DNA from: a phage | Length of the DNA stretch: 64,000 nt | Direction: 5' to 3' (one strand) | Sequence record: PX418213.1 | Shown here: in pieces, positions 27,361 through 35,374 of the stretch | How positions within the stretch are numbered: the stretch's first letter is position 1 | Layout of the letters: the number at the start of each line of letters is the position of its first letter | Notes under the pieces: generated by a model | The model's database searches: none | Told to the model about the DNA's origin: nothing | What the model saw: the letters and a program-made list of their open reading frames with translations, nothing else | Position numbers and translations under genes: made by a program

Positions 27361-27447
27361 TGGTGCTGGGCACAGGATTCGAACCTGCAATGGGATTACT
27401 CCTCCTGATTACAAATCAGGTGCATTCAACCATTCTGCCAACCCAGC
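27361..27447 (-). tRNA. tRNA with long extra arm, anticodon TGT (Thr-type) in arm CCTGA-TTTGTAA-TCAGG
   Basis: 87 nt; acceptor GCTGGGT/GCCCAGC; T-arm GCAGG-TTCGAAT-CCTGT; class-II-like length unusual for Thr. Confidence 0.5.
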
Positions 27448-27612
27448 AGAACCCGTTATTTCAACGGGATTTCTTTTTCAATAACAAGAGACTTGTCAGT
27501 CATAACTATCATTGCCATTTGTTGTAGAAATTCAAAGGTGAAGGCTACACGTTCTTCACCAATCTCTACTTCTACACGTTTCTTTTGTTTATCGATCTTG
27601 ACTTTTATGTTA

Positions 27613-27864
27613 TCAGCCATTAGAGAGTACAGTACTGGTAGTTGGCAATACTACAGATGAAGCAACAGTGTTTAAATGCTTTCTCCAGTCTAGGTTAAAT
27701 TGTTTTCGAAACTCTTCATAAGGTTCTTCTGGATAAAAGCTAAAACCCCCTTTCTCATCATTCAGGATAACAGATCCGTCAGTTTGTTCGTATGCTCGGT
27801 ATGTTTCTCCAATAACAATAACTCGTTTATCGGTACTTTTATTACGAAACTCAAAAACGTGCAT
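27613..27864 (-). CDS. hypothetical protein
   Basis: 83-aa ORF. Confidence 0.5.
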   Translation of the reverse strand: MHVFEFRNKSTDKRVIVIGETYRAYEQTDGSVILNDEKGGFSFYPEEPYEEFRKQFNLDWRKHLNTVASSVVLPTTSTVLSNG

Positions 27865-27880
27865 AATGTTTCCTTAAAGT

Positions 27881-27956
27881 TGGAGCGGCTAGAGGGAATC
27901 GAACCCTACTCAGCGAGGCTTGGAAGGCCTGCGACACAACCCATGTGCTTAACCGC
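27881..27956 (-). tRNA. tRNA-Gly (TCC), tentative
   Basis: acceptor GCGGTTA/TAGCCGC; loop CTTCCAA; one mismatch in anticodon stem. Confidence 0.5.
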
Positions 27957-27964
27957 TTATTATT

Positions 27965-28040
27965 TGGCTGGAGAAGGAGGAATCGAACCTACCATTAACG
28001 GAGTCAAAGGCCGTTGTGCTAACCGTTACACTACTCTCCA
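27965..28040 (-). tRNA. tRNA-Gln (TTG)
   Basis: U1-A72 acceptor (TGGAGAG/CTTCTCCA) as in bacterial tRNA-Gln; loop CTTTGAC. Confidence 0.55.
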
Positions 28041-28046
28041 ATTATT

Positions 28047-28122
28047 TGGCTGGAGTGCCTGGGATCGAACCAGGAACCTTCGGAGTCAGAGGCCGACGAT
28101 CTGCCAATTGATCTACACTCCA
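28047..28122 (-). tRNA. tRNA, anticodon CTG (Gln-type), tentative
   Basis: acceptor TGGAGTG/CACTCCA; T-arm CTGGG-TTCGATC-CCAGG; loop CTCTGAC. Confidence 0.5.
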
Positions 28123-28131
28123 AAAATGCTA

Positions 28132-28368
28132 TTAACTAGATGCTGTTTCTACTGGCTGAGACACAGCAGGCTGTTCTAACGTATCTGGTGCTGATACAGA
28201 GAAAAGAGCTTGTAATGCTGCAATATCACGCTCGTAAGTATCAATACGAGTAGTAAGAGTATCTACCATCTGTTTATGGTAGGCTAAGTTATTCTGAGAT
28301 TCATCTCGAAGAGTTTGCAGTTCTGCAAGACGTGTTAACATAATTTCACTAATTAAAGCATTACTCAT
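28132..28368 (-). CDS. coiled-coil protein
   Basis: 78-aa ORF. Confidence 0.5.
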   Translation of the reverse strand: MSNALISEIMLTRLAELQTLRDESQNNLAYHKQMVDTLTTRIDTYERDIAALQALFSVSAPDTLEQPAVSQPVETASS

Positions 28369-28558
28369 TTGTTTCTCCTAAGTTTTCCGGTTCTTCTAAA
28401 CGTTTGCCTTCATGATCTACTCGAATAACTCCGCACCCTTCGCAAATCACAACTGCACCATAACCTTCTTTGACCTCAGCTTCTGTAATCAAACCAGAAA
28501 GATCACCAGTATCTCTGCCCCACATATCAATGGAGCATTGTTTGCAGAAATCAGCCAT
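28361..28558 (-). CDS. hypothetical protein
   Basis: 65-aa ORF. Confidence 0.45.
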   Translation of the reverse strand: MADFCKQCSIDMWGRDTGDLSGLITEAEVKEGYGAVVICEGCGVIRVDHEGKRLEEPENLGETNE

Positions 28559-28583
28559 ATTTTATTTCCTATTTAAGTTAATT

Positions 28584-28660
28584 TGGGGTGGCTAGTGGAA
28601 TTCGAATCCACATAGGCCTGATTCACAATCAGGATCATTAACCAATTATGATATAGCCAC
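28584..28660 (-). tRNA. tRNA-His (GTG)
   Basis: extra 5' G typical of tRNA-His; anticodon arm CTGAT-TGTGAAT-ATCAG. Confidence 0.7.
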
Positions 28661-29029
28661 AATTGAAAACTCGCAGGGTTAGCGAAACCATCCTCAATTA
28701 GCATGTTCTAGAATACTAATCAAGTTATCTCCTATTGCACGCAGCTCAAGACGAGTACGAATTTTCAATTGTGGCGGCTCTCCGAAACTCTTCTACTCTA
28801 GCCTTAGCAGCTTACTCCCGAACGCATGTCGGGAAAGTCTTACTAAGAGTATCAAATAGCACCGTTACACTTTGAGCCATAGGTGTATCAAGAAGCAGAA
28901 GGACTTGAACCTTCACGAGATAGACCATTTATCTCAGCCGCTTTATGAGGTATGTTGCGGGGAGTGGATGTTCCCCATAAACCTTTTAGGCAGCCCCGTC
29001 TACCGATTCCGGCATACTTCAAGATTTTT
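28661..29029 (-). ncRNA. non-coding stretch with isolated T-arm-like hairpin
   Basis: GAAGG-TTCAAGT-CCTTC hairpin near 28898-28914 with no matching acceptor stem; GGGGA..TCCCC hairpin at 28958-28975. Confidence 0.3.
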
Positions 29030-29203
29030 TTATAAACCAGCAGAAGCCTCATTTAGAGCATCAACAATAGCTTCACGTTGGGTCATTCCATACCCGGTGG
29101 AATCTAGGTGTGGCAAATAAGCCATCCATCCCTTATCTGTTTCATGAAGACATGCTTTAAATTTTGTACCATCCTTCATTGTTACAGTAACTGTTTTGCT
29201 CAT
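29030..29203 (-). CDS. small hypothetical protein (57 aa)
   Basis: hand-translated MSKTVTVTMKDGTKFKACLHE...; AAGGAAA RBS. Confidence 0.4.
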   Translation of the reverse strand: MSKTVTVTMKDGTKFKACLHETDKGWMAYLPHLDSTGYGMTQREAIVDALNEASAGL

Positions 29204-29223
29204 AAGATTTCCTTATAGTTAAT

Positions 29224-29313
29224 TGGCAGAAGATAATGGAGTCGAACCATCACCGTATCGCTACAGCGGGCTGGTTTTCAAGACCAGTTACGTACCACTA
29301 CGTCCTATCTTCT
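29224..29313 (-). tRNA. tRNA-Ser (TGA)
   Basis: 90 nt with long variable arm; anticodon arm CTGGT-CTTGAAA-ACCAG. Confidence 0.7.
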
Positions 29314-29326
29314 AGTATTTATTATA

Positions 29327-29674
29327 CTAATAGTCACTCGTACTAGTGAAGTTTTCTACTTTTCCACAAATTTTACAAGTCCTACGATGGTAGTAGGTAA
29401 TTTTTACTTTAGACCAGCCATCGTGATCATTACCTAGGTTTTCTGTTACTCCCCAAGTATGAGAACACTCATTTTCAATTTGCTTAGTAAGAGCGTTATA
29501 GCGAGTATAAAACTCCTCCTGAGCAATAGCAAACTCTTTCTGTAGTTTATCACGAGCAATAATAGCACGTTCCAGATATGTTAAATCTGGCATTCCAGCT
29601 TTTTCAGCAGCATCTATAATCTTATCTTCATCTAAAGATGCTAAAAACTCTAGAGCTTTATCTTTTGCTAACAT
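29327..29674 (-). CDS. hypothetical protein with C-terminal Cys pairs
   Basis: 115-aa ORF; ...CSHTWG...RRTCKICGK. Confidence 0.5.
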   Translation of the reverse strand: MLAKDKALEFLASLDEDKIIDAAEKAGMPDLTYLERAIIARDKLQKEFAIAQEEFYTRYNALTKQIENECSHTWGVTENLGNDHDGWSKVKITYYHRRTCKICGKVENFTSTSDY

Positions 29675-29693
29675 TATTATTACCTCAAGTGTT

Positions 29694-29784
29694 TGGCGGA
29701 AGAGGAGAGATTTGAACTCTCAAGCCGTTTTACCAGTCAGCCACTTTCCAAGCGGTTTTCGTCGCCAATTCGATTTGCTCTTCC
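29694..29784 (-). tRNA. tRNA-Ser (GGA), tentative
   Basis: 91 nt; acceptor GGAAGAG/CTCTTCC; T-arm GAGAG-TTCAAAT-CTCTC; long variable arm. Confidence 0.55.
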
Positions 29785-29804
29785 AATAATAAGATGATGC
29801 CTCT

Positions 29805-29893
29805 ATCACACCAGGCTGTTATGCCTCGCTGGGATTCGAACCCATTAAAACAGCTCAACCGAGATAGTAGGTTTAATTTACTCTGACCATCAA
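29805..29893 (-). ncRNA. degenerate tRNA-like element
   Basis: T-loop GGGTTCGAATCCC at 29831-29843 but no complementary acceptor strand or encoded CCA. Confidence 0.3.
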
Positions 29894-29896
29894 ATT

Positions 29897-29973
29897 TGGT
29901 GCGTGACAAGGGATTCGAACCCTCAAAACCCGACTTCTAAGGACGGTATGTATGCCAATTCCATCAATCACGC
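29897..29973 (-). tRNA. atypical tRNA, anticodon TAG (Leu codon) but class-I length
   Basis: 77 nt; acceptor GCGTGAT/GTCACGC; D-loop GAATTGG (Leu-like); loop CTTAGAA; no long variable arm. Confidence 0.45.
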
Positions 29974-29978
29974 GTATT

Positions 29979-30057
29979 TGGTGGAGAATAACGGAATCGA
30001 ACCGTTCTGATGTCCTCGGTGCAAGCGAGGTGTCCACTCCATGCAGACCCATTCCCC
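29979..30057 (-). tRNA. tRNA-Ala (TGC)
   Basis: G3:U70 pair in acceptor (GGGGAAT/ATTCTCC); anticodon arm CCTCG-CTTGCAC-CGAGG. Confidence 0.7.
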
Positions 30058-30295
30058 AAATTCTTTAGTTTACTAAGGCTATTAGCTCGGCGCAACTACA
30101 GCACCTTCGCTTCGAGCGGAAGGAACTGCGTCATCTCGCAAACCCAATACACTATTCAGTTGCCGCTGAATCTAGTGGACTAATCTAGAACTTCTCCCGA
30201 ATCGTAGGGATCGTGCTTTTTGGCAGCCAGTCCTAGGTCGAGCTAATACCTTAGTGAACTATGATGAGGATTTCTCCTCATCAATTTATATAAAT
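30058..30295 (-). ncRNA. structured leader / candidate ncRNA at 5' end of tRNA transcript
   Basis: no ORF; long-range complement AGGCTATTAGCTCG (30076-30089) with CGAGCTAATACCT (30239-30251); local hairpins. Confidence 0.35.
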
Positions 30296-30324
30296 ATTAT
30301 AACAAGAAATTAAGCATCAAGCAA
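30296..30324 (-). promoter_or_regulatory. T5-type promoter driving tRNA cluster segment
   Basis: TTGCTT, 17 bp, TATAAT; overlaps 3' end of CDS 30317-30685. Confidence 0.55.
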
Positions 30325-30685
30325 GTACATTTTTAGCGATTTCTTGCAGTTCCTTTACATCACGAACGTAAAGGTAATCAGAGCTTCCAGAGTGCATACT
30401 TTGCATAACTACACCTTCATCTGGTGCATTATCCTTCAGAGTAATTCCTAACCAGAACTCGGCAAAACTAGGTGTTATCTCACCTTGACTTGCCTTGAAT
30501 ACATCATATTCTGTAAGTTCTTGACCAGTAGATAATCCCAAATAGACAGAACTAAGATCTATCTCTTTATGAGACTCATAAAACTCCGTTAGATCTTTCT
30601 CCATATCCCAACCATGCTGTAACGCGAACTCCATTGCCACATGACTGAAATAACCTTGAATCTTGCTTGATAATTGCATTTGCAA
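30317..30685 (-). CDS. hypothetical protein
   Basis: 122-aa ORF starting with TTG. Confidence 0.5.
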   Translation of the reverse strand: MQMQLSSKIQGYFSHVAMEFALQHGWDMEKDLTEFYESHKEIDLSSVYLGLSTGQELTEYDVFKASQGEITPSFAEFWLGITLKDNAPDEGVVMQSMHSGSSDYLYVRDVKELQEIAKNVLA

Positions 30686-30704
30686 TTCCTTATTTTGAGT
30701 TAAT

Positions 30705-30778
30705 TGGTACTCGGTGATAGAATCGAACTATCGCAATCGCCGTGTAAAGACGGGGTTCTCCCATTAAACTAACCGAGC
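30705..30778 (-). tRNA. tRNA-Val (TAC), tentative
   Basis: acceptor GCTCGGT/ACCGAGT; T-arm GATAG-TTCGATT-CTATC; loop TTTACAC. Confidence 0.5.
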
Positions 30779-30782
30779 AATT

Positions 30783-30861
30783 TGGTAGATCGCCTGGGAC
30801 TCGAACCCAGAACCTTCCGATTAAAAGTCGGATGCTACTAAACCTATTGAGCTAGCGATCT
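30783..30861 (-). tRNA. tRNA-Lys (TTT)
   Basis: anticodon arm TCCGA-CTTTTAA-TCGGA; acceptor AGATCGC/GCGATCT. Confidence 0.7.
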
Positions 30862-30862
30862 A

Positions 30863-31030
30863 TTAGTAACCATTGTATACTTCTTTAATAGAGTGAATTT
30901 TCAAGTAAGGGTGATTAGTATTAAACTCTGCCATTACTTCATCCCAATTTTTACCGTAATGAGCGAGTAAGGATTTTGATGTATTCTTACCTAAACGTTT
31001 GTCACTTACTACTAATCGAAATACTTTCAT
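30863..31030 (-). CDS. small hypothetical protein (55 aa)
   Basis: hand-translated MKVFRLVVSDKRLGKN...; AGAGGA RBS. Confidence 0.4.
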   Translation of the reverse strand: MKVFRLVVSDKRLGKNTSKSLLAHYGKNWDEVMAEFNTNHPYLKIHSIKEVYNGY

Positions 31031-31050
31031 TTCGAAATCCTCTATTAAAA

Positions 31051-31128
31051 TGGAAGCGGGTGCAGGAATCGAACCTACCTCTTTCTAGCTTATGAGACTA
31101 GTGATCTCTACCAGAGATCTAACCCGCA
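31051..31128 (-). tRNA. tRNA, anticodon CAT (Met/fMet/Ile2)
   Basis: anticodon arm CTAGT-CTCATAA-GCTAG; T-arm GTAGG-TTCGATT-CCTGC; irregular acceptor end. Confidence 0.55.
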
Positions 31129-31134
31129 ATTGTT

Positions 31135-31212
31135 TGGTCTCCGTGGGAGGATTTGAACCCCCGACCCTATCGCCCCAAACGAAACGCTCTGGCCAAACTG
31201 AGCTACACGGAG
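31135..31212 (-). tRNA. tRNA-Pro (TGG)
   Basis: acceptor CTCCGTG/CACGGAG; D-arm GCTCAGTTTGGCCAGAGC; loop TTTGGGG. Confidence 0.6.
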
Positions 31213-31216
31213 AATA

Positions 31217-31375
31217 TTATTTCTTCAACCACAACAAAGATAAGCCCAACATACTAAAGCCGCTAACTAATCCGATACATTTTTCTTCTATAGTAAAAGT
31301 ATCTAGATTAAATGCTGTTATAGCTATTGGCATACACCATAATGCCATAAAAACTTGAGCTATCTTGTGTTTCAT
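31217..31375 (-). CDS. small membrane protein (52 aa)
   Basis: hand-translated MKHKIAQVFMALWCMPIAITAF...; GAAGGAAAG RBS; promoter directly upstream. Confidence 0.4.
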   Translation of the reverse strand: MKHKIAQVFMALWCMPIAITAFNLDTFTIEEKCIGLVSGFSMLGLSLLWLKK

Positions 31376-31407
31376 TTTGCTTTCCTTCTCTTCACTTTAT
31401 AAGATAT

Positions 31408-31436
31408 ATTATACAGAGAATTAAGCAGAATAGCAA
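31408..31436 (-). promoter_or_regulatory. T5-type strong sigma70 promoter
   Basis: TTGCTA, 17 bp, TATAAT. Confidence 0.6.
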
Positions 31437-31439
31437 ATG

Positions 31440-31828
31440 AATTTTTAATAAATTTACTTATTGTGTAGGCCACCTGGAGGCTACCAACCCCACGGCTGAC
31501 AAAGAAGTTTGCGAGACCTCTCTTAAATGCCAGAATAGACCCGCCGATCTATCGGAACCTACATAATAAGTAAACTTTATAGTGTCATTCTAGACAGGAC
31601 TCGAACCTGTTATCACTTGTGCGGACTTACGAGAACCATTCTTTCACTCGAATCGAACGAGCTTCTGCCCTAGCCAAGCTGGTTTCCCCATCAACCACGC
31701 TAGAATGTTTGATTGTTTTCAGTGCAAGAGTCCGAGTCTTGGACACGACCGCTTCGCAAGTACATAGGCAGCTTATCATGAGTCAGCACTTCCGAATTGC
31801 TAGCTCCGTGTTCTGCACTGAAATTTTG
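31440..31828 (-). ncRNA. structured non-coding region with tRNA-like elements
   Basis: no ORF; D-arm-like TGGTT-GATGGGGA-AACCA; two T-arm-like hairpins (CTCG-TTCGATT-CGAG and ACAGG-TTCGAGT-CCTGT); ATTCTAG/CTAGAAT complement about 120 nt apart; separate stem TTCAGTGCA/TGCACTGAA (31719-31727 with 31812-31820). Confidence 0.35.
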
Positions 31829-32176
31829 TTAATTTAATAGTAAAGTACGATCTACTTCACCATTAATTGTTCGGCACTCTTCTGGGATTGCTGGTGTAGC
31901 CTTATATTCCCACCATTCAGAACCGTCGTATTCACCACGTTCTAACCAAGTTCCGTCAGTAAACCATACATTACCATAAAGCAATTGCCCACCGAAACCC
32001 GAGTCATATTTAAAGTCTAGATTATTTAGAAAATCTTCAATATCTTTTTCTGTATAACCTACGGGCAATACCCAAACTTCTTTGTCTCCATAATAACCGA
32101 ATTCTATCTTAATACACTTAACTTCAGAATTAGTATTCTTTAGGGCAAGTAACAACTCTTCTTTAGCATTAATCAT
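31829..32176 (-). CDS. hypothetical protein
   Basis: 115-aa ORF. Confidence 0.5.
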   Translation of the reverse strand: MINAKEELLLALKNTNSEVKCIKIEFGYYGDKEVWVLPVGYTEKDIEDFLNNLDFKYDSGFGGQLLYGNVWFTDGTWLERGEYDGSEWWEYKATPAIPEECRTINGEVDRTLLLN

Positions 32177-32202
32177 AGCATATTTCTCGTGCTAGTTTAA
32201 TT

Positions 32203-32278
32203 TGGTACACCCACTAGGACTTGAACCTAGAACCCTCCGCTTAAGAGGCGGTAGCTCTAACCATTGAGCTATGGATGT
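32203..32278 (-). tRNA. tRNA, anticodon CTT (Lys-type), tentative
   Basis: acceptor ACATCCA/TGGGTGT; D-arm GCTCAATGGTTAGAGC; loop CTCTTAA. Confidence 0.5.
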
Positions 32279-32279
32279 A

Positions 32280-32438
32280 TTAAATTACTTTTTCCAGTTC
32301 ATCAGCTATGGCTTTGATTTTTTCAAAGTTTACATCACTTATAATGATACCTTCCAGTGACAGAGATATTCTAGCATTTTTCATAGCAGATTCTTTTATC
32401 TGCTCTATCTCTTCTGGAGTAAACTCCCTACGTTCCAT
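32280..32438 (-). CDS. small hypothetical protein (52 aa)
   Basis: hand-translated MERREFTPEEIEQIKESAMKNARISL...; AAGGTAGG RBS. Confidence 0.4.
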   Translation of the reverse strand: MERREFTPEEIEQIKESAMKNARISLSLEGIIISDVNFEKIKAIADELEKVI

Positions 32439-32455
32439 AGCTAACCTACCTTATT

Positions 32456-32532
32456 TGGCGCGACCGATGGGATTCGAACCCACATTCCCTCCCGTGACAG
32501 GGGAGTACCATTACCAAGCCAGCCCCGGTCGC
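32456..32532 (-). tRNA. tRNA-Asp (GTC)
   Basis: acceptor GCGACCG/CGGTCGC; anticodon arm CTCCC-CTGTCAC-GGGAG. Confidence 0.75.
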
Positions 32533-32541
32533 ATAATTCAT

Positions 32542-32727
32542 TTACTCAGCTTTGAGTTTTTCAATAGCTGCATTAAGTTCCTTAAGAAACTCTTTTCGTA
32601 CATTAAGACGATTAAGACTTACTAGTATATCATGTTTAAGTTCTTCGATGTATTTCTTCTCAACTTCAATATTGTTGAGAGTGCTATCACGATGAACCTC
32701 TAGCTGCGCAATTACATTCTTGGACAT
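32542..32727 (-). CDS. small coiled-coil protein
   Basis: 61-aa ORF. Confidence 0.4.
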   Translation of the reverse strand: MSKNVIAQLEVHRDSTLNNIEVEKKYIEELKHDILVSLNRLNVRKEFLKELNAAIEKLKAE

Positions 32728-32829
32728 GCTTGTTTCCTCAGTTATTAATGAAAATGGTATCTGTGGCTGAATTCGATGTCAGCAATGATAGCTGGTTGGC
32801 TACCGGTTTACTTAACTCTACACAGAATT

Positions 32830-32912
32830 TGGCGGGCCGTGTAGGATTCGAACCTACGTTGTCTTTCGACATGGATTAACAGTCCACCGCCAAACCGCTT
32901 GGCTAACGACCC
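32830..32912 (-). tRNA. tRNA, anticodon GTT (Asn-type) with 13-nt extra arm
   Basis: 83 nt; acceptor GGGTCGT/ACGGCCC; anticodon arm GTGGA-CTGTTAA-TCCAT; variable GTCGAAAGACAAC. Confidence 0.55.
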
Positions 32913-34715: not shown

Positions 34716-34792
34716 TGGTAGGGGTGGTGGGATTCGAACCCACAAAACCTGAATTTTAAGTCCAGTACCTATGCCAATTCGATTACACCCCC
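34716..34792 (-). tRNA. atypical tRNA, anticodon TAA (Leu codon) but class-I length
   Basis: 77 nt; acceptor GGGGGTG/CACCCCT; D-loop GAATTGG; anticodon arm CTGGA-CTTAAAA-TTCAG; no long variable arm. Confidence 0.5.
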
Positions 34793-35296: not shown

Positions 35297-35374
35297 TGGT
35301 GGCTCCCCGAGGATTCGAACCTACGTACCTTCCGGTTATGAGCCGGGTGCTCATACCATATGAGCTTGAGAACC
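35297..35374 (-). tRNA. tRNA, anticodon CAT (Met/Ile2)
   Basis: acceptor GGTTCTC/GGGAGCC with G-U pairs; loop CTCATAA; T-stem has mismatches. Confidence 0.5.

What the first reader, a model, noticed from the sequence alone, without database searches (positions are those of the whole stretch)
27361..32912. Long-extra-arm tRNAs carrying Thr-type (TGT) and Asn-type (GTT) anticodons
The tRNAs at 27361-27447 (87 nt) and 32830-32912 (83 nt) fold with perfect 5-bp anticodon stems presenting TGT and GTT, yet they have 13-15-nt extra arms normally restricted to Ser/Leu/Tyr tRNAs. Either the phage carries structurally unusual isoacceptors or the anticodon assignment is off.
Basis: seen in the sequence. 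Interest (0 to 1): 0.5.

Follow-up and report, generated by a model that had tools for sequence, protein, structure and literature searches.

The report
Phage Thr and Asn tRNAs with extra arms
Two real tRNA genes of a T5-like phage read threonine and asparagine codons but carry an extra hairpin arm normally found only on Leu/Ser/Tyr tRNAs; this shape is common in phages, almost absent from cells, and occurs on tRNAs that bacterial defence nucleases are known to cut.

Summary
ARAGORN and Rfam call tRNA-Thr(UGU) at 27361-27447 (87 nt) and tRNA-Asn(GUU) at 32830-32912 (83 nt). The 15-nt and 13-nt surplus lies in the variable region and forms 3-bp hairpins capped by GUAA and GAAA. The anticodon register is not off. 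Both carry the cognate identity elements: G1-C72, C2-G71, G35 and U36 for Thr; GUU and G73 for Asn. Neither carries a complete Leu, Ser or Tyr set.

They are alleles. T5 has short versions (75 and 78 nt) at the same cluster positions. The long-arm form is a large phage class. I found 100 unique long-arm Asn(GUU) sequences with strong covariation in the arm, including phiKZ and T4-like phages. Only 38 pattern hits occur in 185,579 cellular genomes, mostly in tRNA arrays.

Thr(UGU) and Asn(GUU) are, with Lys(UUU), the targets of the defence nucleases PARIS-AriB and P2-OLD. The long alleles keep host-like anticodon arms where T5's short alleles are mutated. Bas33, which carries both long alleles, escapes PARIS once Lys(UUU) is supplied.

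My best reading is functional decoders whose arm shields them from such nucleases. The shielding role is inferred, not shown.

The parts
27361..27447 (-). tRNA-Thr(UGU), 87 nt, long-arm allele. Acceptor GCUGGGU/GCCCAGC, discriminator A73, CCA encoded. 3-bp D stem GCA/UGC with an 11-nt loop. T arm GCAGG-UUCGAAU-CCUGU.
   Evidence: ARAGORN. Rfam RF00005 58.9 bits. 98.9-100% identical to genes annotated tRNA-Thr in about 100 T5-like phages and to tRNAT of AJ604531.
27411..27413 (-). Thr anticodon UGU (plus strand reads ACA). Nucleotides 36-41 read UAAUCA, identical to the AriB cleavage motif of E. coli tRNA-Thr(UGU). The stem keeps both CNG motifs (CUG and CAG) recognised by P2-OLD.
   Evidence: comparison with E. 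coli thrU: 4 of 5 stem pairs and 6 of 7 loop bases identical. Motif definitions from PMC12409363 and PMC12445682.
27389..27403 (-). Thr variable region, 15 nt: A-GGA-GUAA-UCC-CAUU. A 3-bp helix, a GNRA tetraloop and a 4-nt tail. The final U can form an A15-U48 Levitt pair.
   Evidence: ARAGORN cloverleaf and Rfam insertion position. Relatives covary: CC-GAAA-GG in Aeromonas phage PX29, where the Levitt pair switches to G15-C48; UCC-GCAA-GGA, GAC-UUUU-GUC and AGA-GAAA-UCU in IMG/VR contigs.
32830..32912 (-). tRNA-Asn(GUU), 83 nt, long-arm allele. Acceptor GGGUCGU/ACGGCCC, discriminator G73, CCA encoded. 4-bp D stem GCCA/UGGC. T arm GUAGG-UUCGAAU-CCUAC.
   Evidence: ARAGORN. Rfam 59.0 bits. 100% identical to tRNAN of AJ604531. 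535 cultured-phage records hold a full-length relative.
32878..32880 (-). Asn anticodon GUU (plus strand reads AAC). The anticodon arm GUGGA-CUGUUAA-UCCAU differs from E. coli asnT only by one compensated pair (C28-G42 to U-A). Nucleotides 36-41 read UAAUCC, as in E. coli.
   Evidence: Motif from PMC12409363.
32858..32870 (-). Asn variable region, 13 nt: GUC-GAAA-GAC-AAC. A 3-bp helix, a GNRA tetraloop and a 3-nt tail.
   Evidence: Family covariation: 47 distinct stems among 85 unique sequences, with GAAA x37, GUAA x6, GCAA x4, UUCG x3. In the 27 unique 15-nt variable regions, column pairs 2-11, 3-10 and 4-9 pair in 96%, 100% and 93% of sequences, against a median of 33%.
30783..30861 (-). Context: tRNA-Lys(UUU), 79 nt, the third isoacceptor targeted by AriB. 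It has no extra arm but an enlarged D loop. Nucleotides 36-41 read UAAUCG (A41 replaced by G).

Best explanation
Both loci are genuine, expressed tRNA genes of a T5-like phage. They decode ACA (Thr) and AAC/AAU (Asn) and are charged by the host ThrRS and AsnRS. They belong to a phage-specific structural class in which a class-I identity is combined with a short, GNRA-capped extra arm. Together with the phage tRNA-Lys(UUU), they replace the host isoacceptors that Toprim defence nucleases (PARIS AriB, P2-OLD) cut in the 3' strand of the anticodon stem, at 40|41. T5's short alleles escape by mutating the cleavage motif (U39 to G). The long alleles keep a host-like anticodon stem-loop, which preserves synthetase recognition, modification and decoding. 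They differ instead in the extra arm, which starts 3-4 nt from the cut site, and in the D loop. I infer that the arm hinders docking of the nuclease. Shown: gene reality, anticodon register, the arm as a conserved helix, identity elements, phage restriction, allelic alternation. From the literature: which host tRNAs are targeted, and the rescue of Bas33. Inferred: charging specificity and the shielding role.
For: Gene and register. Compensatory change in the Asn anticodon stem. Identity: Thr-87 and all 14 unique long-arm Thr(UGU) have G1-C72 and C2-G71 plus G35 and U36. Long-arm Asn has GUU and G73 in 82 of 85. Rules are taken from PMC9976931. Arm is a selected helix. Mean best stem is 3.39 against 2.67 in shuffles, and the maximum of 200 shuffles is 2.87. 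Only 38 hits occur in 596 Gb of cellular genomes, about half of them real and mostly in arrays of 7-36 tRNAs. None is found in 5,426 E. coli genomes. Functional scaffold: depositor notes in AJ604531 say that CUA-anticodon versions of both are amber suppressors. Nuclease link: AriB targets are Lys(UUU), Thr(UGU) and Asn(GUU), cut at 40|41 within U36AAUC|A/C41, and AriB also reads the D loop and distal features. P2-OLD prefers Thr(UGU) and also cuts Lys and Asn. In 30 T5-like loci every short Thr or Asn allele has lost U39, and every long allele keeps UAAUC. Bas33 (HildyBeyeler) carries Thr-87 and an 86-nt long Asn and lacks Lys(UUU). It is rescued from PARIS by T5 tRNA-Lys alone, whereas T7 needs Lys plus Thr. 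Long arms are enriched in Thr(UGU): 11 of 63, OR 4.3, p=3e-4.
Against: No cleavage or charging data exist for these alleles. The T5-like dichotomy rests on about two lineages per gene. In the wider sample the link between a long arm and UAAUC is not significant for Thr (7 of 11 against 12 of 33). Long-arm Asn with C39 also exist (L177, L242). Lys(UUU), AriB's best substrate, has no long-arm form in 66 unique viral sequences. The same kind of arm occurs on Cys and Trp tRNAs, which are not known AriB or OLD targets. Long Thr and long Asn do not co-occur significantly (8/39 vs 3/27, p=0.5). The family spans hosts far from E. coli, so any one nuclease cannot explain it. From my own knowledge, class II synthetases approach tRNA from the variable-loop side, so the arm must be tolerated by ThrRS and AsnRS. 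The Bas33 inference is indirect, and phages differ in how sensitive they are to tRNA depletion.
Confidence: 0.4

Rival explanations
1. Functional Thr and Asn decoders whose extra arm is a tolerated structural variant with no specific role. It could be an inherited or inserted stable hairpin that phage tRNA arrays, free of host constraints, carry neutrally. The tRNAs would serve ordinary supply or codon-compensation functions.
For: Long arms occur at 3-7% across many class-I anticodons in phage arrays, including Cys, Trp, Met and Glu. Phage tRNA-Leu often lose their long arm (67 of 156 unique), which suggests the variable region is generally plastic in phages. There is no significant association with the nuclease motif outside T5-like phages.
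Against: The helix is kept through extensive covariation, with 47 distinct stems and 93-100% pairing. It is capped almost always by thermostable GNRA or UUCG tetraloops with a constant 3-4-nt tail. That pattern indicates purifying selection on the arm's structure. Enrichment is specific to a few anticodons: Asn, Thr(UGU), Ile(UAU) and Cys.
Confidence: 0.3
2. The arm is a handle or self-marker for a phage-encoded or host factor. It would let phage tRNAs be processed, modified, repaired or spared separately from host isoacceptors, for example spared by a phage nuclease that degrades host tRNA.
For: There is a uniform module (3-4 bp, GNRA loop, 3-4-nt tail) on several different tRNA identities in unrelated phages. 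GNRA loops are common protein and RNA docking elements (my own knowledge). T5-like clusters also encode unexplained tRNA-like stable RNAs, such as RNA3 next to Asn.
Against: No conserved partner gene was identified, and I did not search for one. The phages that carry the arm are too diverse (Demerecviridae, Straboviridae, Vequintavirinae, phiKZ) to share an obvious common factor.
Confidence: 0.15
3. Identity switch: the class-II-like body makes LeuRS (for Thr-87) or SerRS (for Asn-83) charge these tRNAs irrespective of anticodon. ACA or AAY codons would then be partly recoded, as with allo-tRNAs or nematode nev-tRNAs.
For: Thr-87 has A73, A14-A15, U48 and G18G19, which are part of the E. coli Leu set. 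Asn-83 has G73, G1-C72 and G2-C71, which are part of the Ser set. AJ604531 notes say the CUA versions suppress amber ('effective' for Thr-87), whereas T5's short Thr and Asn do not.
Against: Thr-87 lacks A20a and U17 of the Leu set, and its C2-G71 is an antideterminant for SerRS. Only 7 of 14 long-arm Thr have A73, while all keep the ThrRS pairs. PX29 has G15-C48 instead of A15-U48. In long-arm Asn the acceptor stems are highly diverse, often U1-A72, so the Ser acceptor elements are not conserved, whereas GUU and G73 are. G73 blocks LeuRS and TyrRS. The 3-bp arm is shorter than my recollection of E. coli tRNA-Ser arms. CUA suppressors are often charged by GlnRS or LysRS through the anticodon, so suppression does not show class-II identity. 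Bas33's rescue implies correct ACA decoding.
Confidence: 0.07
4. Mis-annotation or pseudogene: the anticodon register is wrong, or the genes are decayed tRNAs.
For: Unusual lengths for these anticodons. The minimum-free-energy fold of Thr-87 alone does not give a cloverleaf.
Against: Two independent detectors agree. All helices are intact and the T loop and GG are invariant. The genes are conserved at 93-100% in about 100 (Thr) and more than 250 (Asn) phage genomes. There is covariation in the anticodon stem and in the arm. The depositor reports suppressor activity.
Confidence: 0.02

Closest known systems
[quoted passage not shown]
   Same: Same phage family, same positions in the tRNA cluster, same three anticodons. 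Presumed same job: replacing host tRNAs cut by AriB at 40|41.
   Different: T5's alleles are class-I sized (78, 75 and 78 nt) and carry substitutions in the cleavage motif (UAAACC, UAAGCA, UAAGUU). The window's Thr and Asn alleles are unrelated in sequence, keep the host motif (UAAUCA, UAAUCC), and add a 13-15-nt arm. Their resistance has not been measured.
Phage tRNA-Thr(UGU) that rescue P2-OLD toxicity (PMC12445682)
   Same: Phage-encoded UGU decoders that replace E. coli thrU.
   Different: Those resist through altered CNG motifs and a shortened anticodon stem. Thr-87 keeps both CNG motifs and a full 5-bp stem. Whether it was in that 245-tRNA library is unknown, because the supplements are not held.
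Bacterial class II tRNAs, especially tRNA-Tyr (E. coli tyrU: 13-nt variable region, GUC/GAC stem)
   Same: Size and shape of the extra arm: a 3-bp stem, a small loop and an unpaired tail. Thr-87 also has a 3-bp D stem and a long D loop like class II tRNAs.
   Different: The anticodons and identity elements are those of Thr and Asn. There is no sign of recent descent from a class II tRNA of the same genome.
Allo-tRNAs (Mukai 2017, PMC5389517) and nematode nev-tRNAs: long-arm tRNAs whose anticodon does not match their Ser or Leu identity
   Same: A long variable arm combined with a class-I-type anticodon.
   Different: Allo-tRNAs have 8/4 or 9/3 acceptor/T-stem geometry and Ser or Ala identity elements. 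Here the geometry is the canonical 7/5, and the identity elements match the anticodon.

Membership tests
tRNA (Rfam RF00005) | Cloverleaf of four helices with a conserved T loop and D-loop GG, scoring above the gathering threshold | tested here: met
   58.9 and 59.0 bits against a threshold of 29. Full model 1-71 matched with no non-canonical pairs flagged. ARAGORN agrees.
tRNA-Thr (E. coli-type ThrRS substrate) | G1-C72 and C2-G71 in the acceptor stem, plus G35 and U36 | tested here: met
   Thr-87 is GCUGGGU/GCCCAGC with anticodon UGU. All 14 unique long-arm Thr(UGU) have G1-C72 and C2-G71. The rule that identity lies in acceptor pairs and the anticodon is from PMC9976931. The specific pairs are from my own knowledge (Hasegawa 1992).
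tRNA-Thr (E. coli-type ThrRS substrate) | Aminoacylation with threonine | not testable with these tools
   Only indirect support: Bas33, which carries this allele as its only UGU decoder, needs just tRNA-Lys to escape PARIS.
tRNA-Asn (AsnRS substrate) | Anticodon G34 U35 U36 and discriminator G73 | tested here: met
   Asn-83 has GUU and G73. 82 of 85 unique long-arm relatives have G73. Rule.
tRNA-Asn (AsnRS substrate) | Aminoacylation with asparagine | not testable with these tools
   No charging data are available.
Class II tRNA (structural class) | Variable region of at least 10 nt forming a helix | tested here: met
   15 and 13 nt, each with a 3-bp stem and a GNRA loop. The helix is supported by covariation.
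tRNA-Leu (E. coli LeuRS identity) | A73, A15-U48, G18G19 and A20a | tested here: not met
   Thr-87 has A73, A15, U48 and G18G19 but U at 20a and no U17. Asn-83 has G73, an antideterminant. The set is not conserved among relatives: A73 in 7 of 14, and G15-C48 in PX29.
tRNA-Ser (E. coli SerRS identity) | Long variable arm, G73, G1-C72 and G2-C71 | tested here: inconclusive
   Asn-83 has G73, G1-C72, G2-C71 and C11-G24, but only a 3-bp arm. The acceptor pairs are not conserved in the family, where many have U1-A72. Thr-87 has A73 and C2-G71, which counts against SerRS.
tRNA-Tyr (bacterial TyrRS identity) | A73 and U35 | tested here: not met
   Thr-87 has A73 but G35. Asn-83 has U35 but G73.
Phage tRNAs that evade anticodon-arm nucleases by site mutation (T5 type) | Substitution at or next to the cleavage motif relative to the host tRNA | tested here: not met
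   Nucleotides 36-41 are identical to the E. coli targets: UAAUCA and UAAUCC. The Thr stem keeps both CNG motifs. The window's Asn-83 has lost the CNG pair (C28-G42 to U-A), but the L007-type variant keeps it.
Phage tRNAs that evade anticodon-arm nucleases | Resistance to cleavage by AriB or P2-OLD | not testable with these tools
   Needs biochemistry. The only indirect evidence is the Bas33 rescue.
Allo-tRNA | 8/4 or 9/3 acceptor/T-stem geometry | tested here: not met
   Canonical 7-bp acceptor and 5-bp T stems.

The most novel reading that the evidence does not exclude
A short GNRA-capped extra arm is a phage-specific countermeasure. It lets phage tRNA-Asn(GUU), tRNA-Thr(UGU) and some others keep a host-identical anticodon stem-loop while becoming non-substrates for defence nucleases that cut or grip the anticodon stem (PARIS AriB, P2-OLD and relatives). 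This would be a second, structural route of tRNA-based immune evasion, alongside the known cleavage-site mutations. It would explain why about one in eight phage tRNA-Asn genes with this anticodon arm is class-II shaped while cellular ones almost never are.
Probability: 0.3. Interest if true: 0.8.

Novelty: new variant of a known kind. Interest (0 to 1): 0.6.

Why it matters
Textbooks restrict long variable arms in bacteria to Leu, Ser, Tyr and Sec tRNAs. Here a covariation-supported extra arm sits on Asn and Thr tRNAs in hundreds of phages, including T5 relatives, T4-like phages and phiKZ, yet it is nearly absent from 185,579 cellular genomes. I found no discussion of it in the searchable literature. 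Thr(UGU) and Asn(GUU) are now known targets of the PARIS and P2-OLD nucleases, so these natural alleles give a direct test of what those nucleases recognise beyond the cut site. They also test whether tRNA architecture itself is an arena of the phage-host arms race. In addition they are ready-made scaffolds for tRNA engineering, because the arm must be tolerated by ThrRS, AsnRS, EF-Tu and the ribosome.

Tried and rejected
1. Wrong anticodon or alternative fold: rejected. The single-sequence minimum-free-energy fold of Thr-87 is not a cloverleaf, but that is common for tRNAs.

2. Recent capture from the host: rejected. Thr-87 has no BLAST hit in 5,426 E. coli genomes, and Asn-83 has only weak ones.

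3. T5 allele plus an insertion: rejected. T5's Thr and Asn differ across the whole sequence.

4. A general rule that a long arm goes with retained UAAUC and a short arm with mutated U39. It is perfect in T5-like phages but not significant in the wider sample. It could not be tested for Asn, because my search pattern fixed the motif.

5. Co-occurrence of long Thr with long Asn: not significant.

6. Descent from a class II tRNA of the same genome (Tyr GUA to GUU, Ser UGA to UGU): no signal.

7. Bas34 as a counter-example: not informative. It has a short Asn and no Thr.

8. Looking for these alleles in the P2-OLD and AriB tRNA-library screen and in the PARIS supplements: the files are not held.

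9. MAFFT could not align the variable region structurally. I replaced it with a length-stratified column-pair test.

10. Literature searches for an earlier description of long-arm Asn or Thr phage tRNAs found none. Older Ksenzenko-lab papers are not in the library.

Full report
WHAT IS THERE. The window is a T5-like phage (Demerecviridae). Its closest public records are Salmonella and Escherichia Tequintavirus-type phages. It carries a cluster of about 25 tRNA genes on the minus strand between 26.3 and 39.1 kb. The Rfam tRNA model scores them at 58.9 and 59.0 bits against a threshold of 29. It matches the whole model and places the surplus nucleotides as one insertion between the anticodon stem and the T stem.

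Read by hand, Thr-87 is GCUGGGU-UG-GCAG/AAUGGUUGA/AUGC-A-CCUGA-UUUGUAA-UCAGG-[AGGAGUAAUCCCAUU]-GCAGG-UUCGAAU-CCUGU-GCCCAGC-A-CCA. Asn-83 is GGGUCGU-UA-GCCA/AGCGGUU/UGGC-G-GUGGA-CUGUUAA-UCCAU-[GUCGAAAGACAAC]-GUAGG-UUCGAAU-CCUAC-ACGGCCC-G-CCA. Each variable region contains a 3-bp helix closed by a GNRA tetraloop (GGA-GUAA-UCC and GUC-GAAA-GAC) and followed by 3-4 unpaired bases. The only quibble is that the Asn anticodon stem has a G.U pair at 27-43, as E. coli asnT does.

THE ANTICODON ASSIGNMENT IS NOT OFF. Two independent programs give the same register. An 83-nt Asn variant in three relatives carries a compensatory U28-A42 to C-G change in the anticodon stem. The extra hairpins, with 3 bp and 4-nt loops, cannot serve as anticodon arms. 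Both tRNAs carry the identity elements of the amino acid their anticodon specifies. Thr-87 has G1-C72, C2-G71, G35 and U36. Asn-83 has GUU and G73 (rules).

I tested the class-II identities explicitly. Thr-87 has part of the E. coli Leu set (A73, A15-U48, G18G19) but lacks A20a. Across the 14 unique long-arm Thr(UGU) I collected, only 7 have A73, while all 14 keep G1-C72 and C2-G71. Asn-83 has G73, G1-C72 and G2-C71, as tRNA-Ser does. Across 85 relatives, however, the acceptor stem is extremely diverse and often starts U1-A72, whereas GUU and G73 are kept in 82 of 85. Tyr identity (A73 plus U35) fits neither. So these are structurally unusual Thr and Asn isoacceptors, not mislabelled Leu, Ser or Tyr tRNAs. 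Charging itself could not be tested.

THEY ARE ALLELES. GenBank AJ604531 ('Bacteriophage 5 tRNA gene region', Ksenzenko laboratory) is identical around Asn. It annotates tRNAT at 87 nt and tRNAN at 83 nt, with depositor notes that replacing the anticodon by CUA gives an 'effective' amber suppressor (Thr) or an amber suppressor (Asn). T5 itself has a 75-nt Thr and a 78-nt Asn at the same positions in the cluster. These are unrelated in sequence and are noted as not convertible to suppressors. In 28 T5-like loci from IMG/VR plus public records, Thr is either 75 nt (17 loci) or 87 nt (7 loci). Asn is either 78 nt (8 loci) or 83 nt (16 loci), with a third long allele of 86 nt in phage HildyBeyeler. 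The alleles assort semi-independently. About 100 cultured phages carry Thr-87 at 93% identity or more.

THE EXTRA ARM DEFINES A LARGE, PHAGE-RESTRICTED CLASS. Distant relatives appear in other families. Aeromonas T4-like phage PX29 has an 85-nt Thr(UGU), 78% identical, with arm CC-GAAA-GG. Its Levitt pair is switched from A15-U48 to G15-C48. PX29 also has an 82-nt Asn. Erwinia phage Hena1 (Vequintavirinae) has an 86-nt Asn, and an 87-nt Trp(CCA) that shares the D arm and T arm of Thr-87. The tRNA-Asn genes of phiKZ (87 nt) and Klebsiella phage KP1 (85 nt) are long-arm too. In all, 535 cultured-phage records hold a full-length relative of Asn-83, each annotated simply 'tRNA-Asn'.

I scanned IMG/VR for an Asn anticodon arm followed by an extended spacer before the T loop. 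In a scan that allowed both spacer lengths, 15 of 120 hits (about 12%) were long. The same long pattern found only 38 places in 185,579 bacterial and archaeal species genomes (596 Gb, complete scan). About half of those are real long-arm Asn tRNAs, and most sit in arrays of 7-36 tRNA genes per 8 kb, as phages and mobile elements have.

The arm is a real helix. Among 85 unique viral sequences there are 47 different stems, mostly 3-4 bp. They are capped by GAAA (37), GUAA (6), GCAA (4) or UUCG (3) and followed by 3-4 unpaired bases. The mean best stem is 3.39 bp against 2.67 in shuffles. I then grouped sequences by variable-region length alone, with no reference to pairing. The 27 unique 15-nt regions pair at columns 2-11, 3-10 and 4-9 in 96%, 100% and 93% of cases, with 3-5 pair types each, against a median of 33% for all column pairs.

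Across the IMG/VR loci, long arms are a 3-7% background in class-I anticodons. They are enriched in Thr(UGU) (11/63, OR 4.3, p=3e-4), Ile(UAU) (11/21, but of a different and longer type) and Cys(GCA) (7/57). They are absent from Lys(UUU) (0/66).

HOW IT MOST LIKELY WORKS. [quoted passage not shown] The cut is between nucleotides 40 and 41 within U36-A-A-U-C|A/C41. AriB also reads the D loop (U16) and further distal features. T5's own Lys, Thr and Asn tRNAs, which are mutated at the site, together neutralise PARIS (PMC12409363). P2-OLD, another Toprim nuclease, preferentially severs the anticodon stem of tRNA-Thr(UGU) at paired CNG motifs and also cuts Lys and Asn. Phage Thr(UGU) tRNAs rescue the cell (PMC12445682).

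The window's two long-arm tRNAs therefore carry two of the three anticodons these nucleases target. They differ from T5's alleles in a telling way. T5 has UAAGCA (Thr) and UAAGUU (Asn) at positions 36-41. The long alleles read UAAUCA and UAAUCC, identical to the E. coli targets. Thr-87 shares 4 of 5 stem pairs and 6 of 7 loop bases with thrU, including both CNG motifs. Asn-83 differs from asnT by one compensated pair.

A published experiment bears on function. Bas33 is HildyBeyeler. I find that it carries Thr-87 and a long Asn but no Lys(UUU). The paper reports that T5 tRNA-Lys alone rescues Bas33 from PARIS, whereas T7, which has no tRNAs, needs Lys plus Thr. The simplest reading is that Thr-87 decodes ACA and survives active AriB despite its host-like cleavage site.

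My proposal is that the extra arm emerges 3-4 nt from the cut site, between the two AriB contact regions in the published model. Together with the altered D loop, it would prevent productive docking. It would leave intact the anticodon stem-loop that ThrRS, AsnRS, the modification enzymes and the ribosome need.

This last step is inference, and several results weaken it:
- The dichotomy in T5-like phages rests on about two lineages per gene.
- Outside them the association is not significant.
- Long-arm Asn with C39 exist.
- Lys(UUU) never has the arm in the viral sample.
- Cys and Trp tRNAs sometimes do.
- The class spans hosts far from E. coli.

I therefore give the full explanation 0.4. Within that, I am about 0.9 confident that these are functional Thr and Asn decoders. 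Rivals: a tolerated neutral variant (0.3), a handle or self-marker for another factor (0.15), an identity switch to Leu or Ser (0.07), and an artefact (0.02).

COMPARISON WITH WHAT IS KNOWN. The genes themselves are not new. They have been in GenBank since 2004 and are routinely annotated as tRNA-Thr and tRNA-Asn. They work like the nuclease-resistant T5 tRNAs but fail that group's defining sequence feature, a mutated cleavage site. They look like class II tRNAs, most like bacterial tRNA-Tyr in arm size, but fail the Leu and Tyr identity tests, and the Ser test is inconclusive. They are not allo-tRNAs, because the geometry is 7/5 and identity matches the anticodon.

I found no paper in the searchable library that describes long-arm Asn or Thr phage tRNAs, their phage restriction, or any link between variable-arm architecture and nuclease evasion. 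Older subscription papers from the depositing laboratory could not be checked. I rate this a new variant of a known kind.

VERDICT. This is a real and conserved structural class of phage tRNA with a plausible, directly testable role in the tRNA-centred arms race. Interest 0.6.

Noticed in passing
window 29897-29973 and 34716-34792 (minus strand): The mirror-image anomaly. tRNA-Leu(UAG) and tRNA-Leu(UAA) are only 77 nt with a 5-nt variable loop (class-I shape), yet keep A73, A14-A15 and U48. T5's Leu(UAG) is 85 nt. In the IMG/VR sample 67 of 156 unique phage tRNA-Leu lack the long arm. Of 80 short ones overall, 76 have A73 and 76 have U48. This fits E. coli LeuRS not needing the arm.
   Followed up: partly
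window 30783-30861 (minus strand): tRNA-Lys(UUU) is a 79-nt allele with an enlarged D loop and UAAUCG at positions 36-41. T5 has a 78-nt allele with UAAACC. The 79-nt form is the commonest in T5-like phages: 19 of the 24 Lys(UUU) genes in the first 29 sequences scanned.
   Followed up: partly
window about 32755-32827 (minus strand), directly 3' of tRNA-Asn: A homologue of T5 'RNA3', a 73-nt tRNA-like stable RNA of unknown function that ends in ACCA. It has no Rfam match at E<=1.
   Followed up: no
window 35300-35374; 29979-30057; 29224-29313 (all minus strand): The detectors disagree. Rfam finds a tRNA at 35300-35374 (the Ile2-type CAU tRNA of T5) that ARAGORN misses. ARAGORN alone calls a 79-nt tRNA-Ala(UGC) with a 7-nt variable loop and the 90-nt tRNA-Ser(UGA).
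   Followed up: no
L031:2992-3078 (Erwinia phage Hena1): An 87-nt long-arm tRNA-Trp(CCA) shares the D arm, the variable-region tail CAUU and the T arm GCAGG/CCUGU with the T5-like Thr-87, but has a different acceptor stem and anticodon arm. This suggests modular re-use of a long-arm tRNA body.
   Followed up: partly
IMG/VR loci such as L053, L054, L081, L167 and L218; MAG locus L272: Half of phage tRNA-Ile(UAU) genes (11 of 21 unique) have a much longer variable region of 15-26 nt. It contains a conserved CAGAUUA or CAGAUAA loop-like motif and is a different type from the GNRA hairpin of Asn and Thr.
   Followed up: no
L300:1472-1558 (phiKZ); L301:2501-2585 (Klebsiella phage KP1): Model phages also carry long-arm tRNA-Asn(GUU): 87 nt with arm GGC-GAAA-GCC, and 85 nt with arm GUCA-GAAA-UGAC.
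   Followed up: yes
L263, L264, L268, L293 (Micromonospora and Verrucosispora chromosomes); L262, L272 (MAGs): Dense chromosomal arrays of 23-36 tRNA genes in 8 kb include an 89-90-nt Asn(GUU). Two MAG arrays also have long-arm Lys(UUU) of 88-90 nt, a form not seen in the viral sample.
   Followed up: no
T5-like loci, for example L029:3695-3768: ARAGORN calls a 74-nt 'tRNA-Ser(ACU)' without a CCA end in several T5-like phages. It also calls a tRNA with a CUA (amber-reading) anticodon in one of them. Neither was examined.
   Followed up: no
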